IMG/VR virus record: IMGVR_UViG_3300029822_000015
Coordinates: 1-49,534 of that record
DNA: 49,534 nucleotides
Strand: one strand, 5' to 3'
From: a virus
Lineage: Duplodnaviria; Caudoviricetes
Made by a program: the position numbers and the translations under genes. Below the pieces are notes generated by a model, which saw nothing but the letters and a program-made list of their open reading frames with translations, was not told where the DNA came from and did no database searches. Below, piece after piece: positions 4,846-49,434 of this stretch. Every line of letters starts with the position of its first letter. Within the stretch, counting starts at the first letter, position 1.

Positions 4846-6057
4846 TTAATAGGCTAACTTAAATTTTGAAGTAATACAAATGTTCTCACTAGCATTAATA
4901 TCTCTATCTAACATAGATTTGCAATTAGGACAAGTCCACTTTCTTACGCTAAGAAATTTTTGGCCCATATTTCTAAACTCTTCATTATAGAATCCACATT
5001 GAGAACATGTCTTAGAGCTGGGATAAAACCTGTCTACCAAATGTACTGGTATTCCCAACCATTGACATTTATTAACTAGTCTAATCCGAAATCTGTAAAA
5101 CTTCTGTTGCTGAACTTGCTTAGCTAAATGGTGATTTTTAATCATTCCACTAACGTTTAAATCCTCTATCGCTATATACTGTGGCTTGGTTCTCACCACA
5201 TTGGCAATAATTTTATCCTGATAGTCGTTTAAAGCATTAGTGATCCTTCCATTTAGCTTAAGAATTTTATCTTGTGTCTCTGACAGGTTGAAATCAGTAG
5301 TGGCTCTCCTTTCGTATTTGTTTTCTCTCAGTCTTTGTTTATAGTCCTGATACTGACGGGACTCTTTTCTTTGTAGCCTTCTTAATCTTTTCCTAAGCCT
5401 TTTTAATCTAGTAGACTTATTAAGATTCTTATAGACTGTACCATTATTTAATATGGCAAAGTCTTTAATGCCTAAGTCTATTCCAATAGATTCTCCGGTA
5501 AGATTAAGTTTACTAAAATCTGGTTGCTCTACTAAAACAGTTAGATAGTACCTACCCGCCCTCTCTTTTATTCTACCAGAGACAACCCTAAAATCATCAC
5601 CTACTGGAATATACCCCTGCTCTTTGTATCTAACAAATCCTATCTTAGGCAACTTTATTTGATAAGTATCATACCTAACATGTTGAGACTTACCATTAGC
5701 ACAAAAGTAATAGGAACCTTGATGCTTTCTAAGACTTCTAAATTTAGGTTTCCCTCTTTTGTGTTTAAAGAATGCTTTCATGTTGGTATCAGCATCTATC
5801 ATGGCTTGTTTAACGTGTTTAGAATAATATTCCTTTATCCATAAGTCGCTAGGATTATCCTTTAAATACTGGTTATTAAACCAAGTAGAAAAAGTATAAG
5901 CACTCATATATGATTTGGGATCATGCGTTTCTTGGTAGTTTTTACTATTTATTTCAAGAAATTTATTGTAAGCCCAACGACTAACACCAATATAAGAATC
6001 AATCTGTTGCTTTTGAGTCTTATTTAGTTTTAATTCAACTTTATATGCTATTTGCAT
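4846..6057 (-). CDS. tnpB: RNA-guided endonuclease TnpB (IS607 OrfB)
   Basis: RuvC motifs IGIDLG, IAIEDL and DRDINA; Zn ribbon CSQC...CPNC. Confidence 0.95.
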   Translation of the reverse strand: MQIAYKVELKLNKTQKQQIDSYIGVSRWAYNKFLEINSKNYQETHDPKSYMSAYTFSTWFNNQYLKDNPSDLWIKEYYSKHVKQAMIDADTNMKAFFKHKRGKPKFRSLRKHQGSYYFCANGKSQHVRYDTYQIKLPKIGFVRYKEQGYIPVGDDFRVVSGRIKERAGRYYLTVLVEQPDFSKLNLTGESIGIDLGIKDFAILNNGTVYKNLNKSTRLKRLRKRLRRLQRKESRQYQDYKQRLRENKYERRATTDFNLSETQDKILKLNGRITNALNDYQDKIIANVVRTKPQYIAIEDLNVSGMIKNHHLAKQVQQQKFYRFRIRLVNKCQWLGIPVHLVDRFYPSSKTCSQCGFYNEEFRNMGQKFLSVRKWTCPNCKSMLDRDINASENICITSKFKLAY

Positions 6058-36441: not shown

Positions 36442-37956
36442 TCATGCTAGCTCCATTCTATCAGCAATCGCCTTAATAACGGGCACTGTCACACTATTAC
36501 CAGCCTGCTTGTATAATTGACTGTCACTTAATCTAGCTTGTTTTGCACGATTGAACGCCCAATCTGGGAACCCTTGTAAGCGCCACGCTTCTAATGGGGT
36601 TATTTTCCTTATACGCCACTTACTTTGTTTTTGTGATACAAAGGATCCCCGTATTTTTTCCATCTGATGTAATGTTTGTTGCAAAGATGGTATCCTTTTG
36701 CTAGCTTTCCACAAATTTTGCATATATTCCTTTTTCTGTGTTGCTTCATGTGGCAACTTCTGCACAAAGCAATTAAATTCTCTGGTGAATTGTTCTGAAT
36801 ATTTCCGTCGGTATGATGGGTATCTATATTCTTGGTTGCTCCACAAATCTTGCAAGTTGTATCCGTATCGATTTCTCTGGCTCTCTTGTGGGCTACATAC
36901 CAACTCACATTTCCTGATTTTTGATGAGCCTTGTGATAATAATTGCTCATACATAATCTGTCGCAAAACTTCCGTCGTTGAAACCAGCTTGGAGATTCTT
37001 TCACTCCATTTGGCATAATTTTCATTTTTAGCTCTTTCCCACAATTGGGACAAAATTTTTGTTTCATGTTTTATAAGGTCTCCATTATCCTCCACCAACG
37101 TAGCTTGCTCTTGCCCAGTAGTCAAAGTGTTGGCTTTACTACGCCCAACTCTTCCCCGTCTAGTTTTTGAATTCGGCTGTGAAAGATTAATTGCGTCACC
37201 AACAGTTGCAATATCAAATCCTTTTTTTGTAGCTTCTTTAACCATTACTTTAGGCTCTTGTCCGCCACCTTGCATAGTGCTAAGTGTTGGTGCAATCCCG
37301 TTAGTCCCATATACTCGTCCCACCTGTGGGTTACCACCGAAGGGCTTCGAATTGCTGATGTTACCAACCTGGTTTACTGCTTTATCTGGCTTATCAGTTT
37401 CTCCGTTTTTTCTGACGATAGGAAATACTTTTCTGGTACGTCTTCCTCTAAGATGTCCGATAATGAACAGGCGCTCCCTGTGCTGAGGAACGAATTGGGC
37501 TGAATCGAAAACGTCCCATTCGCAGTCATACCCGATTTCATCCAGTTCAGCTTGCACTTGGAGGAAATCCCACCCTTTGTTGATTGATAACAGGTTTTTA
37601 ACGTTTTCAATGAATAAGTAGCTGGGTTTTCGTTCTTTCGGTGTTTCTCTAAGAAGTTTTGTGACTGTAAAGAATAAACTCGATCGTTTTCCATTATTAA
37701 TTCCTTTCTGTTTTCCAGCAACTGAAATATCCTGACAAGGAAAGCCAAAACACCAACAATCCGCTTGTGGAATTTCAGTAGATATAACATCATTAATATC
37801 TTTGGCGTTCCAAATTTTATTTGCGTTATCATGAATAGCCAGATAGCTTTGGCGTGCGAAATTGTCCCACTCTACCCAACCAACACACTCATGTCCTGCC
37901 TGCTCCATTCCTAAATGAAAGCCACCAATTCCAGCAAATAGATCAATGAATTTCAT
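36442..37956 (-). CDS. C5-cytosine DNA methyltransferase with a ~150-codon insertion before motif IX
   Basis: Motifs I FAGIGG, IV GFPCQD, VI ENV, VIII QHRERLF, IX RKITPLEAWRLQGFP and X YKQAGNSV. Confidence 0.93.
   Translation of the reverse strand: MKFIDLFAGIGGFHLGMEQAGHECVGWVEWDNFARQSYLAIHDNANKIWNAKDINDVISTEIPQADCWCFGFPCQDISVAGKQKGINNGKRSSLFFTVTKLLRETPKERKPSYLFIENVKNLLSINKGWDFLQVQAELDEIGYDCEWDVFDSAQFVPQHRERLFIIGHLRGRRTRKVFPIVRKNGETDKPDKAVNQVGNISNSKPFGGNPQVGRVYGTNGIAPTLSTMQGGGQEPKVMVKEATKKGFDIATVGDAINLSQPNSKTRRGRVGRSKANTLTTGQEQATLVEDNGDLIKHETKILSQLWERAKNENYAKWSERISKLVSTTEVLRQIMYEQLLSQGSSKIRKCELVCSPQESQRNRYGYNLQDLWSNQEYRYPSYRRKYSEQFTREFNCFVQKLPHEATQKKEYMQNLWKASKRIPSLQQTLHQMEKIRGSFVSQKQSKWRIRKITPLEAWRLQGFPDWAFNRAKQARLSDSQLYKQAGNSVTVPVIKAIADRMELA
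36609..37067 (-). CDS. Zinc-finger HNH endonuclease nested in the +1 frame of the methyltransferase gene
   Basis: CPNC...FC..LC; CKIC...DTHHTDGNIQNNSPENLIALCRSCHMKQH HNH core; CKIC...LCNKHY.R...GDP; upstream GGAGG and GGAG. Confidence 0.85.
   Translation of the reverse strand: MKQKFCPNCGKELKMKIMPNGVKESPSWFQRRKFCDRLCMSNYYHKAHQKSGNVSWYVAHKRAREIDTDTTCKICGATKNIDTHHTDGNIQNNSPENLIALCRSCHMKQHRKRNICKICGKLAKGYHLCNKHYIRWKKYGDPLYHKNKVSGV
37374..37694 (-). CDS. Nested +1-frame ORF resembling a methyltransferase beta-type polypeptide
   Basis: AGAAAGGA RBS 7 nt before ATG 37694; W.KSGM...CSLSDILEEDVPEKYFLS motif. Confidence 0.6.
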   Translation of the reverse strand: MENDRVYSLQSQNFLEKHRKNENPATYSLKTLKTCYQSTKGGISSKCKLNWMKSGMTANGTFSIQPNSFLSTGSACSLSDILEEDVPEKYFLSSEKTEKLISQIKQ

Positions 37957-40148: not shown

Positions 40149-40300
40149 GTCAATTACTCGGTAATAAATTACCGAGCTTGTAACTCACACCCCTAACGGG
40201 GTCGTAGTACAAACGTCTGACAACTCCTACCAAAGTGGTTACATCATCGGGTGATTGACAGCACCCGTTTAACTACTAGAGTTTATCCAGTAGCTATTCT
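40149..40300 (-). ncRNA. Putative omega-RNA scaffold of the IS1341-like TnpB
   Basis: Non-coding right end with GTCAA (40253-40257, minus strand) complementary to the terminal TTGAC, and internal hairpins. Confidence 0.55.
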
Positions 40301-41502
40301 TGATTAGCTTGCAATTGATTAAAGGTGGTTTCTTTATTCGTTACCCAGTTAGCGCCAAGGAGTTGAATATTCATGGCGCCAATCCGATCATCGTTGCTGG
40401 TATAACCACAATGCTTGCAATGGTACTCATGAGTACCGTGGTTACGGGCTTGCTTATCAATCACGCCACATTTAGGGCAACGCTGACTGGTGTAATGAGC
40501 GTCTACTTTAACAACCGTTGAACCTCTCAGCTCAGCTTTGTAAGCTAAGAATTGTTCAAGTTGGTAGAAAGACCAACTAACCTGCTCATAATGTCTTGGC
40601 TTTGCTACTTTCTCGGTAGCAAATCGGACATTGGTTAAGTCTTCAATTACAAACACAGTGCCAGTGCCATATTTATCAACGAGTGTCTTAGTTACTTGAT
40701 GATTGATGTCACTCATCCAGCGGTTTTCTCGTTGACCAATGGCTTTTAGACGGTGCTTGGCTGACTTAGTACCTTTACTTTGCAATTGCTGACGTAATCT
40801 CTTGTACTTTCTACGTGTAGCCAGTATCTTTTTACCAGACACAAATGATACTTCACCCTGTTCATCAAAGGAGGTGGCTAGAAATCTTAATCCCCGGTCA
40901 ATACCTACTACATGTTTAAGCGTGGTTTTGTTGAACTCAGGATTATCAAGGGTACAAGAAACATGTAGGTAGTAACGACCACAAGACTTAACCAGCTTAG
41001 CGGTCCCGAGTTTCCCTTGTTTCAGATAATCTTCAAAGCCTTTAGCACTGTAATTAACCTTTTCCCTAGTAGCAATAGTATTGATGGAGAGCTGGGACTT
41101 AACAAAAGACCAGTCACGTACAGATACCAGGTCATATTGGGGACGGTTAAAACGAATAGGCTTTTGCAACCAAGTTAAATCTCGTTTTTCTTTGTACCAC
41201 TCCCTTGTATTTTTATCTTGGTACTTGTAAGGTTTCTTACTAATTTGGTTATTGACTGCTTTGTAGCGTGCCAAGACCGTTTTAAACACTGATTGAGTCA
41301 TCTGTGCTTTTAACCCAAATTTGTTTCTGATTAAATGATACAACGACTTTTGCAGGTCAGCCTGCTTTGGCTTAAAAATATGGTCAAAATAGTAGTTAGA
41401 AACTAAGTTGCAAGCCAACCGATACTGCTCCATAGTTGCTTCTAACAAGCTGGATTGCTTATCTGTAGGATACAGATGGATTTTTAAAGAAATAGTTGTC
41501 AA
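40294..41502 (-). CDS. tnpB: RNA-guided endonuclease TnpB
   Basis: VGIDRG, VIEDL, YTSQRCPKC...CKHC and NDDRIGAMNI motifs. Confidence 0.95.
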   Translation of the reverse strand: MTTISLKIHLYPTDKQSSLLEATMEQYRLACNLVSNYYFDHIFKPKQADLQKSLYHLIRNKFGLKAQMTQSVFKTVLARYKAVNNQISKKPYKYQDKNTREWYKEKRDLTWLQKPIRFNRPQYDLVSVRDWSFVKSQLSINTIATREKVNYSAKGFEDYLKQGKLGTAKLVKSCGRYYLHVSCTLDNPEFNKTTLKHVVGIDRGLRFLATSFDEQGEVSFVSGKKILATRRKYKRLRQQLQSKGTKSAKHRLKAIGQRENRWMSDINHQVTKTLVDKYGTGTVFVIEDLTNVRFATEKVAKPRHYEQVSWSFYQLEQFLAYKAELRGSTVVKVDAHYTSQRCPKCGVIDKQARNHGTHEYHCKHCGYTSNDDRIGAMNIQLLGANWVTNKETTFNQLQANQE

Positions 41503-46972: not shown

Positions 46973-48928
46973 TTAATCCTTACGATAAAACGGCGTTGTA
47001 TAGCCCGCGGCATTAAGTGGCAGACCCGTTGCCCAATCTGGACCCTGACACATGATGCGTTCCATCTCATCTAGCTTTTTACCAGCTGGAACTTCGGCCA
47101 CAACCTCATCATGCACATGGAAGACCGCATGATAGCCGGCTTCATCAAGTTTCTTCATGCTAAAAGCCAACAAATCACGGGCAGTGGCTTGAGTGATGTT
47201 TTCAACAAGCTTGCCACCGTAAGTTTCAAGTTTCATAAAACCGGCTTTCATGCCTTGACCGTAGTAGGTGATCCGTCCATCATCATTAACTGCTGCTTTG
47301 GCGTAGGCTAATTTACGGCCAGAAGGGATTTCGATAAAGAGATAACCCTGCTTCACGTAAGCCTTTAATCGTCCACCAGCGCAACGGTGCACGCCACCGT
47401 CTTCAATGGCAGCTATTGCCATGTCTTGAACAGCATACCACAGCTTGACAATGTGCGGGTTGGCTTTACGCCATGATTTTACTAGAGACGGTAACTCCTC
47501 TTCATCCAGGCCAAGATTTTTAGCACCCATTGCTAACATTGCGCCAACTGATCCTTGATAGCCTAATGCCAGTGTGGTGATCTTGCCTTTTTGACGTATC
47601 TTCTTATCAATTTTCTCTTTGGGGATCCCCAGCATACGAGACGCAGTAGATTTATAAATGTCCGCATTTTGCTCAAACTCCTTTAACGCCCAACTCTCGC
47701 CTGCGATCCAAGCGATCGTTCGAGCTTCAATTGCTGAAAAGTCACAAATTGCTAGATGATAGCCCTCTTTAGGGACAAAGGCTGTCCGGATAGACTGCTT
47801 GATGACGTCTTGCGGGCTATCAAATAGCATCTCAAGCCCATCAATATCTCGCGCCTTGATCATCTCACGGGCTACTTTTAACTGCTCTAGGCTCAAATAG
47901 TTACGTGGCAGGTTCTGGACTTGTACTAACCGACCAGCCCATCGCCCTGTACGGTTAGCACCATAAAACTGCAACAGTCCATGCACCCGACCATCATCAC
48001 ATGTCGCCATGATCATCTTCTCGTATTTTTTAGTCGAACTGTTAGACAGGCTAAGACGCAACCTAAGCGCCGTATTTACCCTGTCAGGAAGATTACCATG
48101 GTCAATGGCTGATTGTACCGTATCTTTTCCAAGGGTCTTAAACGGGCAATTTTGGGCTTCTAGCCAATCTTTAAATTGCTTGACTGAATTGGGGTTATCT
48201 AAACCTGTCAGCTCCTTTAGCTGCTTAGCACCACGCGCATTAAGTTCGTCCATAATCGCCACCGCGCCGTGTGCCAGGTCTTGGTCAACTCCAACACCTC
48301 GATCATTAATTAGTTGATCAAGTGTGTAGTACGACCACTCTCGATCGCTTACCGGGTATTTACTAAGCGCTTCATCGATAGCCAGCTCGGTGGCCACGTC
48401 TTGGCGGTTATACAGCAGATAGGTCTGCCACTTATCCGGCGCATCGCTGGGCAGGTTACGCGTACGACCGCCATTGGCCTTGGTTGGCTTGCAAGGTTTA
48501 GCAAAGTAGTTGATCAAGGCTCGACCACGAGTGTCTTTTTGCTCATCAAGATGCAGCCAGCTTGCGACTCGGCCTAAACCGGTTGGTAAGCTCATCTCGT
48601 TAGCTATAACCATCGTGTCGTGCCACTGTTGTGGGTCAAGCCACCCTTCTTCGCTGTACATTTTACCTAAGGCCAGCCGTTCAAACTGGGCGTTATACGC
48701 GTATTTAATGCAACTAGGATCGTGCAGAAGCTTGTAAAATTCATCGGTTATTTCCTCACCAGAAGCAAGATCAACTTGATGGAGCGCCCCGTTATCGATC
48801 GAGTAAGTTAAGATCATAATTTCAAAACTAGGGTCATTCACGTAGCGATAAACACCAACATCAGGTAAACTTGCTTCCGAATAGGTCTCAATATCGATTC
48901 GCATGTTATGACTAACCTTAGTCTCCAT
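46973..48928 (-). CDS. Family A DNA polymerase with 3'-5' exonuclease domain
   Basis: IDIETYS, YNAQFER, RTGRWAG, CDFSAIEAR, RQKGKITTLALGY and HVHDE motifs. Confidence 0.95.
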   Translation of the reverse strand: METKVSHNMRIDIETYSEASLPDVGVYRYVNDPSFEIMILTYSIDNGALHQVDLASGEEITDEFYKLLHDPSCIKYAYNAQFERLALGKMYSEEGWLDPQQWHDTMVIANEMSLPTGLGRVASWLHLDEQKDTRGRALINYFAKPCKPTKANGGRTRNLPSDAPDKWQTYLLYNRQDVATELAIDEALSKYPVSDREWSYYTLDQLINDRGVGVDQDLAHGAVAIMDELNARGAKQLKELTGLDNPNSVKQFKDWLEAQNCPFKTLGKDTVQSAIDHGNLPDRVNTALRLRLSLSNSSTKKYEKMIMATCDDGRVHGLLQFYGANRTGRWAGRLVQVQNLPRNYLSLEQLKVAREMIKARDIDGLEMLFDSPQDVIKQSIRTAFVPKEGYHLAICDFSAIEARTIAWIAGESWALKEFEQNADIYKSTASRMLGIPKEKIDKKIRQKGKITTLALGYQGSVGAMLAMGAKNLGLDEEELPSLVKSWRKANPHIVKLWYAVQDMAIAAIEDGGVHRCAGGRLKAYVKQGYLFIEIPSGRKLAYAKAAVNDDGRITYYGQGMKAGFMKLETYGGKLVENITQATARDLLAFSMKKLDEAGYHAVFHVHDEVVAEVPAGKKLDEMERIMCQGPDWATGLPLNAAGYTTPFYRKD

Positions 48929-49388
48929 AAGCTTTACCCGCAATAAATAGTTCTACAACATGCTTTTGTAAGCCGAGTTTTTCCGCAATGTCATCGATCG
49001 AAATGCCTTTAGCATGCAGTTTACGAATCAGTTTAAAATTATTTAGTGATACCGAATATTTGGCATATTTTACCTGGTCGGTCACAACAAGTAAATTATG
49101 CACATCATTATTAAATTTATCGCCGTTAATGTGGATGACGTACTCGCCATGGTCAACACCAATGTAAGCCTCCGCAACTAACCGAGACAACCTAAAATGA
49201 CGCTTAACGCCATCCTCGTATGTGACTGTTACATGTGGGTCGCCAACAATCCCTGGATCGCTCTTGTATTCGTGCGCGCGAGCGTATTTGCCTGATGGGT
49301 AATAGTGCGCCAGGGTTTTAGCATGGCCGAAGTTGCTTACTAATAAGAAGTTTGGCACCGATTTTGGTGATTCCCATTTTTCTCGCAT
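48918..49388 (-). CDS. NUMOD4 + HNH_3 endonuclease-like protein with C-terminal HTH
   Basis: EKW...LVSNFG, RLVAEAYI, HINGDKFNN..NL and SIDDIAEKLGL. Confidence 0.75.
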   Translation of the reverse strand: MREKWESPKSVPNFLLVSNFGHAKTLAHYYPSGKYARAHEYKSDPGIVGDPHVTVTYEDGVKRHFRLSRLVAEAYIGVDHGEYVIHINGDKFNNDVHNLLVVTDQVKYAKYSVSLNNFKLIRKLHAKGISIDDIAEKLGLQKHVVELFIAGKAYGD

Positions 49389-49403
49389 AACTATCCTCCT
49401 AAT

Positions 49404-49434
49404 AAAAAAGCGGCAGCGGATAGCCGCCACCGCT
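49404..49434 (-). terminator. Terminator after the SSB gene
   Basis: AGCGGTGGCGG...CCGCTGCCGCT stem plus T tract. Confidence 0.7.

What the first reader, a model, noticed from the sequence alone, without database searches (positions are those of the whole stretch)
36609..37075. Overprinted HNH endonuclease that invades a methyltransferase gene without intron or intein
Seen: between ...EQATLVEDNGD and motif IX (RIRKITPLE) the methyltransferase has ~150 extra codons with no recognisable motifs and no stop. The +1 frame of the same DNA encodes a complete 152-aa Zn-finger HNH protein whose TAA lies in the codons for RIR and whose SD lies in the LVEDNGD codons. The ORF fills the whole insert, leaving no room for a group I intron core, and the host frame has no intein termini. 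A rough random-codon estimate, (61/64)^153, gives under 1e-3 for the host frame staying open by chance. Established: homing endonucleases normally avoid harming the host gene by splicing or by sitting between genes. Inference: another strategy, dual-frame coding within the tolerant variable region, possibly with the insert looped out or bypassed in translation.
Basis: partly seen in the sequence, partly recalled or inferred. Interest (0 to 1): 0.9.

Follow-up and report, generated by a model that had tools for sequence, protein, structure and literature searches.

The report
Hidden HNH cassette in phage cytosine-methylase
A DNA-cutting (HNH) gene sits one base out of frame inside a phage cytosine-methylase gene whose own frame has no stop codon across it, so the likely selfish insert would be translated straight through rather than spliced out; this trick was published in 2025 for other phages, and here it turns up in a different, widespread nuclease family.

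Summary
Observation confirmed; the strategy is already published. The 504-aa C5 methyltransferase (minus strand, lactobacillus-type phage) carries a 468-nt insert just before motif IX, absent from empty alleles. Its +1 frame encodes a 152-aa zinc-finger HNH; the host frame stays open (P about 2e-8 given the HNH protein). In 40 of 46 other loci with strong HNH relatives the layout is the same; the other 6 also lie in or beside C5 methylase genes (in-frame fusions, fragmented genes, adjacent). Host-frame residues swing freely (W/R, S/P) and model as low-confidence, so selection seems to act on stops only. Filled alleles are not one clade (AU p=0.009) and the insert is more conserved than its flanks, as homing predicts. 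No intron or intein signal; RNA data were inconclusive. Arsenault et al. 2025 (PMC11855218) described hidden HNHs in mycobacteriophage methylases; those use the +2 frame, other methylases and other HNH families. The host gene also has an overlapping beta-subunit-like ORF. This scan noted the same kind of element before on other DNA (16 notes, at least 15 genomes). Verdict: well-supported new variant; nuclease activity, homing and methylase activity untested.

The parts
36442..37956 (-). C5 cytosine methyltransferase (alpha chain), 504 aa, read through the insert without a stop
   Evidence: AlphaFold: residues 1-170 and 450-500 mostly pLDDT > 85
36619..37086 (-). 468-nt (156-codon) inserted cassette, N291-K446 of the methylase; ends uncertain by about 2 codons
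   Evidence: empty allele PWc; net 468-nt difference in an X19 contig; shared 5' end x-D-K/N-G among 11 filled alleles
36609..37067 (-). 152-aa zinc-finger HNH endonuclease ORF in the +1 frame; invariant C6 C9 C35 C39 C72 H84 H85 N93 N97 C102 C105 C116 C119 C129 H132
37080..37083 (-). GGAG, candidate Shine-Dalgarno of the HNH, 12 nt before the ATG
   Evidence: GGAG/AGGA/GAGG before 29 of 41 embedded HNH starts against 18% background; use is inferred
36609..36611 (-). HNH stop codon TAA, supplied by host motif IX codons outside the insert
   Evidence: the empty PWc allele has the same TAA in its +1 frame; 21 of 41 embedded HNHs stop inside motif IX-like codons
36442..36618 (-). methylase motifs IX-X (labels recalled), the part that is lost if the host frame closes
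37374..37832 (-). second overlapping +1 ORF, beta-subunit-like (start uncertain)
   Evidence: PHROG 16143 E 1e-13; 36% over 126 aa to the annotated beta subunit of Streptococcus phage MM1; open and conserved in 4 of 4 lactobacillus-type empty alleles checked

Best explanation
A 468-nt cassette encoding a zinc-finger HNH nuclease in the +1 frame is inserted just before motif IX of a phage C5 methyltransferase gene, and it is likely a selfish homing element that would be translated straight through in the methylase frame as a tolerated, probably unstructured spacer instead of being spliced. Shown: the two open frames, the empty alleles, the same layout in 40 of 46 related loci, patchy distribution. 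Follows from the genetic code: in a +1 overlap a host-frame stop needs a T in the HNH wobble position before AA/AG/GA, and every T-ending codon has a C-ending synonym, so all host stops can be avoided without changing the nuclease; the +2 layout is impossible for this HNH (P = 0). Inferred: the HNH is made by internal initiation at its own Shine-Dalgarno on the methylase mRNA, borrows its stop from motif IX, cuts empty alleles at or near motif IX in mixed infection or prophage encounters, and is copied by recombinational repair; the insert destroys the site; selection for an intact motif IX-X keeps the host frame open but does not care which residues fill it.
For: P(open) 1.8e-8. 40 of 46 loci with HNH profile score >= 85, window excluded, have a stop-free -1 frame, 0 of 46 the other frame; 36 of 42 after dropping 4 near-copies. 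Of the 39 embedded loci besides the window and Staphylococcus phage CUB-EPI_14 gp45, 35 hit Pfam C5 methylase, 3 PHROG methylase and 1 is the beta-like frame of a C5 methylase gene; the search was by the HNH alone. Wobble T before AA/AG/GA: 0 of 1885 in 37 embedded ORFs (zero by definition of the class) against 135 of 434 in the 6 others. Host residues at invariant HNH codons flip W/R, S/P, Q/R; wobble identity is no higher between embedded pairs (0.303, expected 0.259) than embedded-vs-other pairs (0.305, expected 0.263). Insert 91% identical against 77% core and 76% C-terminus in 28 pairs of lactobacillus-type alleles, higher in 25. 9 filled and 8 empty catalytic cores: one clade rejected, p-AU 0.009. 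L026 and L027 have 85% identical cores but the HNH at different sites. Insert pLDDT < 50 while cores > 85.
Against: No activity was measured. Patchiness and a conserved insert also follow from ordinary phage mosaicism, and overlap alone slows change in the insert. HNH and host-core identities are correlated across 25 loci (Spearman 0.60), so spread is mostly among related methylases or partly vertical. The genuine variable region also models at pLDDT < 50, so low confidence does not show disorder. A small excess of wobble identity and of BLOSUM score over expectation (1.78 vs 1.51; 1.70 vs 1.56 in the control) leaves room for weak residue-level selection. The window's SD is weak and 12 nt from the ATG. 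RNA-library contigs do not bridge either junction by the required 31 nt.
Confidence: 0.75

Rival explanations
1. The HNH is domesticated: nuclease and methylase form a compact restriction-modification-like or competitor-cutting module, and the overlap keeps them linked.
For: All 46 strong relatives lie in or beside C5 methylase genes, including two in-frame fusions and one adjacent gene.
Against: Empty alleles are common and interleaved; the same cassette follows different variable-region modules, which a cognate nuclease should track; several insertion sites.
Confidence: 0.1
2. The methylase with the insert is inactive or dispensable and the open frame is inherited from one lucky ancestor.
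For: Orphan phage methylases can be non-essential (PMC11855218, discussion). One relative, P0011, runs into the HNH frame and loses motifs IX-X.
Against: Stops stay absent across HNHs only 40-60% identical and loci of 29-66% GC, while they are abundant (11-34) where the frame is not used.
Confidence: 0.06
3. The insert is removed by an unknown RNA splicing, protein splicing or ribosome bypass.
For: Length is a multiple of three; unusual phage introns exist (PMC11855218 cites one).
Against: No Rfam match at E <= 5 except a chance snoRNA; folding z -0.40; no Hint domain or intein termini; no conserved terminal residues; RNA removal or bypass would not need a stop-free frame.
Confidence: 0.05
4. 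The host-frame insert is a real folded domain (for example target recognition) and is selected as such.
For: Recognisable similarity (29-32%) between lactobacillus and staphylococcus host-frame peptides; predicted helices.
Against: The conserved residues are those forced by HNH codons; radical flips at wobble-controlled sites; no Pfam or PHROG family; empty alleles lack it.
Confidence: 0.04

Closest known systems
ShiLan domain and Pacc40 gp60 insertion (Arsenault, Gosselin, Gogarten 2025, PMC11855218; whole text read, GitHub supplements not seen)
   Same: Out-of-frame HNH with zinc fingers filling an insertion in a phage DNA methylase; host frame stop-free; no intron or intein; patchy distribution; proposed looping out; related free-standing HNH beside methylases.
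   Different: ShiLan and Pacc40 ORFs are in the +2 frame of non-C5 methylases (DPPY motif, label recalled; Pacc40 annotated N-4); here +1 in C5 methylases. HNH only distantly related to ShiLan (hhalign 92%, 26% identity) and not to Pacc40. Here SD-like motifs are enriched (29 of 41), whereas the paper found none and proposed leaderless initiation. Far wider GC and host range.
M.EcoHK31I-type two-frame C5 methyltransferases (PMC2836561, passages read) and Streptococcus phage MM1 alpha/beta (annotation)
   Same: A second chain encoded wholly in an alternative frame of the alpha gene; window ORF is 36% identical to MM1 beta, same +1 offset.
   Different: In EcoHK31I the beta chain supplies motif IX; here the alpha chain itself carries the RIRKITPLE motif. 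This concerns the host gene, not the HNH.
Inteins with out-of-frame homing endonucleases (bioRxiv 10.64898/2026.09.14.751524 and 10.1101/2025.01.02.630785, passages read)
   Same: Endonuclease hidden in another frame of a stop-free stretch.
   Different: There the stretch is removed by protein splicing; here no splicing domain surrounds it.
mobE-split nrdA of phage Aeh1 (PMC3045599, abstract read; phage name recalled)
   Same: HNH invades a gene without splicing and the host protein function is kept.
   Different: Host gene is split into two polypeptides; resembles loci L021 and L031, not the window.

Membership tests
Hidden out-of-frame HNH insertion in phage methylase (class of PMC11855218) | Insertion relative to empty alleles of a phage DNA methylase | tested here: met
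Hidden out-of-frame HNH insertion in phage methylase (class of PMC11855218) | No stop in the host frame; alternative frame encodes a complete HNH with zinc fingers | tested here: met
Hidden out-of-frame HNH insertion in phage methylase (class of PMC11855218) | No detectable intron or intein | tested here: met
Hidden out-of-frame HNH insertion in phage methylase (class of PMC11855218) | Distribution disjunct on the host-gene tree | tested here: met
   p-AU 0.009, 9 filled vs 8 empty
Hidden out-of-frame HNH insertion in phage methylase (class of PMC11855218) | Endonuclease activity and homing | not testable with these tools
   also untested in the paper
ShiLan element itself | +2 frame, same methylase family and site | tested here: not met
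   +1 frame in a C5 methylase
ShiLan element itself | Same HNH family | tested here: inconclusive
   distant homology only, 26% identity, lacks the CRSCH zinc site
Group I intron | Catalytic core RNA structure outside or overlapping the ORF | tested here: not met
   no Rfam match, z -0.40, ORF fills 448 of 468 nt
Intein | Hint domain, N-terminal C/S, C-terminal (H)N followed by C/S/T | tested here: not met
EcoHK31I-type two-frame methylase (host gene) | Conserved beta ORF inside the alpha gene in another frame | tested here: met
EcoHK31I-type two-frame methylase (host gene) | Motif IX on beta, absent from alpha | tested here: inconclusive
   alpha carries RIRKITPLE; motif labels recalled, EcoHK31I sequence not compared
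EcoHK31I-type two-frame methylase (host gene) | Both chains needed for activity | not testable with these tools
   bench test

The most novel reading that the evidence does not exclude
This is an old, large family of HNH homing endonucleases specialised on C5 methylase genes that has made splicing unnecessary: it hides in the one frame where every host stop can be cleared by synonymous change, spreads across phages of 29-66% GC and several insertion sites, and toggles between out-of-frame, in-frame-fused, split-gene and adjacent layouts. Hidden overprinted homing endonucleases would then be a third, common and systematically unannotated class beside introns and inteins.
Probability: 0.5. Interest if true: 0.62.

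Novelty: new variant of a known kind. Interest (0 to 1): 0.45.

Why it matters
The 2025 report rested on about ten mycobacteriophage methylases and one further case, without experiments. This family shows the strategy arising again with another nuclease, frame and host enzyme, quantifies the selection (stops only), and comes with matched filled and empty alleles in harmless lactobacillus phages, which makes splicing-free homing directly testable. It also warns that long 'variable regions' of annotated phage methylases (for example CUB-EPI_14 gp45) can hide unannotated nucleases.

Tried and rejected
Rfam scan and RNA folding gave no intron. Promoter scan: 4 sites against 4.1 expected; one minus-strand site lies inside the HNH ORF, none before it. 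Single-protein locus searches found almost nothing; only the profile did. RNA-library contigs X7, X8, X19 cover parts of the insert but reach under 31 nt beyond the junctions, and may be DNA: no evidence on splicing. The X19 joint is a diverged empty allele, not a splice product. Foldseek gave no match at E <= 0.001. The HNH tree (43 rows) puts 5 of 6 non-overprinted members among low-GC overprinted ones with weak support (94/78) and no root: direction of change not determined. Mycobacterium phage Jung hit is an annotated free-standing gene, not pursued. dN/dS in both frames on close pairs was not done: only proteins, not DNA, were available for the lactobacillus relatives. Literature searches found no paper on this C5/+1 family; subscription journals and the GitHub supplements of PMC11855218 were not searchable and may hold members. 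No complex prediction was run.

Full report
Context. The window is a 49.5-kb virus record with terminase, portal, capsid, tape measure, DNA polymerase, primase and helicase genes on the minus strand. Its methylase resembles those of lactobacillus phages and prophages.

Observation. The methylase ORF (36442-37956, 504 aa) contains, in its +1 frame, a 152-aa ORF (36609-37067) whose stop lies in the I-R codons of RIRKITPLE. Keeping the HNH protein and using the phage's codon usage, 13.7 host-frame stops are expected and P(none) is 1.8e-8. The ORF is a real HNH: PHROG E 5e-12, 62 homologues at E <= 0.001 among 153 candidates, 312 clusters at 50% identity with E <= 1e-10, invariant Cys/His/Asn positions in 45 aligned rows, model pLDDT 90.7 with HNH nucleases as the top structural rows; Pfam hits fall just below their cut-offs. 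Empty alleles exist (C3.1, SAC12B, Lenus, CRBO14221, PWc, Tbat2_7, MM1, CHPC1175). PWc shares the upstream module and fixes the insert at 156 codons, about 36619-37086. The cassette therefore brings the SD-like GGAG and the HNH body, and takes its last codons and stop from the host.

Family. Of 164 loci then held, 47 scored >= 85 bits; 41 of them (40 of 46 without the window) have a stop-free -1 frame across the whole HNH ORF and none has the other frame open. All 41 hosts are C5 methylase genes. Most inserts precede motif IX, three near-copies lie between motifs IX and X, and others precede motif X in methylases of another subtype. The six exceptions have 11-34 stops in that frame but are still methylase-linked: L038 and L039 carry the HNH in frame at the same site, L030 has it fused to a motif IX-like tail, L021 and L031 have it among fragments of a methylase with the C-terminal piece as a separate ORF (these may be pseudogenes or errors), and L036 has it right after an intact methylase. 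Among weaker hits, 7 of 53 and 7 of 62 have the -1 frame open.

What is selected. Host-frame conservation is explained by HNH codons: at invariant Cys, His and Asn the host residue flips between W/R, S/P or Q/R with the wobble base, and wobble identity is the same in embedded pairs (1879 sites) and control pairs (266 sites) (four near-copies dropped). T before AA/AG/GA is absent at 1885 positions, against 31% in the six non-overprinted ORFs. AlphaFold with 31 rows gives confident catalytic and motif IX-X regions and a low-confidence helical insert, though the true variable region is also low. By the genetic code a +1 overlap can always be cleared of host stops synonymously; the +2 overlap cannot for this protein. 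SD-like words precede 29 of 41 starts against 18% background, and 21 of 41 stops fall in motif IX-like codons.

Mobility. Among lactobacillus-type alleles the insert is 91% identical, flanks 76-77%, it follows different upstream modules, and filled cores are not one clade (p-AU 0.009). Across the family HNH and core identities correlate (0.60), so movement is mostly among related methylases. These patterns fit homing but also general mosaicism.

Splicing. No Rfam family, no Hint domain, no unusual folding. Read laying confirmed the filled allele in another study and showed empty alleles, but RNA contigs were too short at the junctions to test splicing.

Prior art. I recalled, then found and read in full, PMC11855218: hidden out-of-frame HNHs in ShiLan-like and Pacc40 methylases, stop-free in the host frame, not introns or inteins, untested at the bench. 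Their ORFs are in the +2 frame and are distant from or unrelated to this family. Out-of-frame endonucleases within inteins are also in print (passages). The host gene's second +1 ORF matches the annotated beta subunit of phage MM1, recalling M.EcoHK31I (passages). Six searches found no paper on the C5/+1 family. The scan's own notes hold 16 similar findings in at least 15 genomes (8 shown, unchecked, seen after my reading was formed); none matched this HNH by sequence.

Verdict. Real, strongly selected and widespread; works like the ShiLan class but is not the ShiLan element. New variant of a known kind, interest 0.45.

Noticed in passing
window 37374-37832 (-): Second +1 ORF inside the methylase gene, beta-subunit-like and conserved in empty alleles; the gene thus encodes three proteins in two frames.
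   Followed up: partly
L002 1966-2307 (+): In Staphylococcus phage CUB-EPI_14 the +1 beta-like ORF stops early and its C-terminal LxDILE...YYLS segment appears in the main frame, as if a frameshift had moved it.
   Followed up: no
L047 2168-2995, L061 2408-2920, L082 40-903: More distant HNH ORFs in the +1 frame inside inteins of terminase and helicase genes, host frame stop-free.
   Followed up: partly
L065 2261-2665; L118 2240-2776: Distant HNH ORFs in the +1 frame inside a UDG-PolA DNA polymerase gene (no intein hit in Pfam) and inside another methylase-like ORF: the trick may extend to essential genes.
   Followed up: partly
L031 352-3090; L021 130-2241: C5 methylase broken into many short, start-stop-overlapping ORFs, each like one variable-region module, with the HNH among them.
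   Followed up: partly
L038 1451-3067; L039 1397-3022: In-frame methylase-HNH fusions at the same site, lacking the last zinc finger.
   Followed up: partly
L171 601-2721: Lactobacillus phage Nyseid methylase has an intein-like insertion at the catalytic PC motif, absent from Lenus.
   Followed up: no
window 40294-41502 and 4846-6057 (-): Two TnpB/IS605 OrfB-like genes (Pfam Cas12f1-like TNB) in the phage genome.
   Followed up: no
window 48918-49430 (-): A second HNH (HNH_3) gene overlapping the start of the DNA polymerase gene.
   Followed up: no
P0011: A relative whose methylase shifts into the HNH frame near the end of the insert and so lacks motifs IX-X; mutation or assembly error.
   Followed up: no
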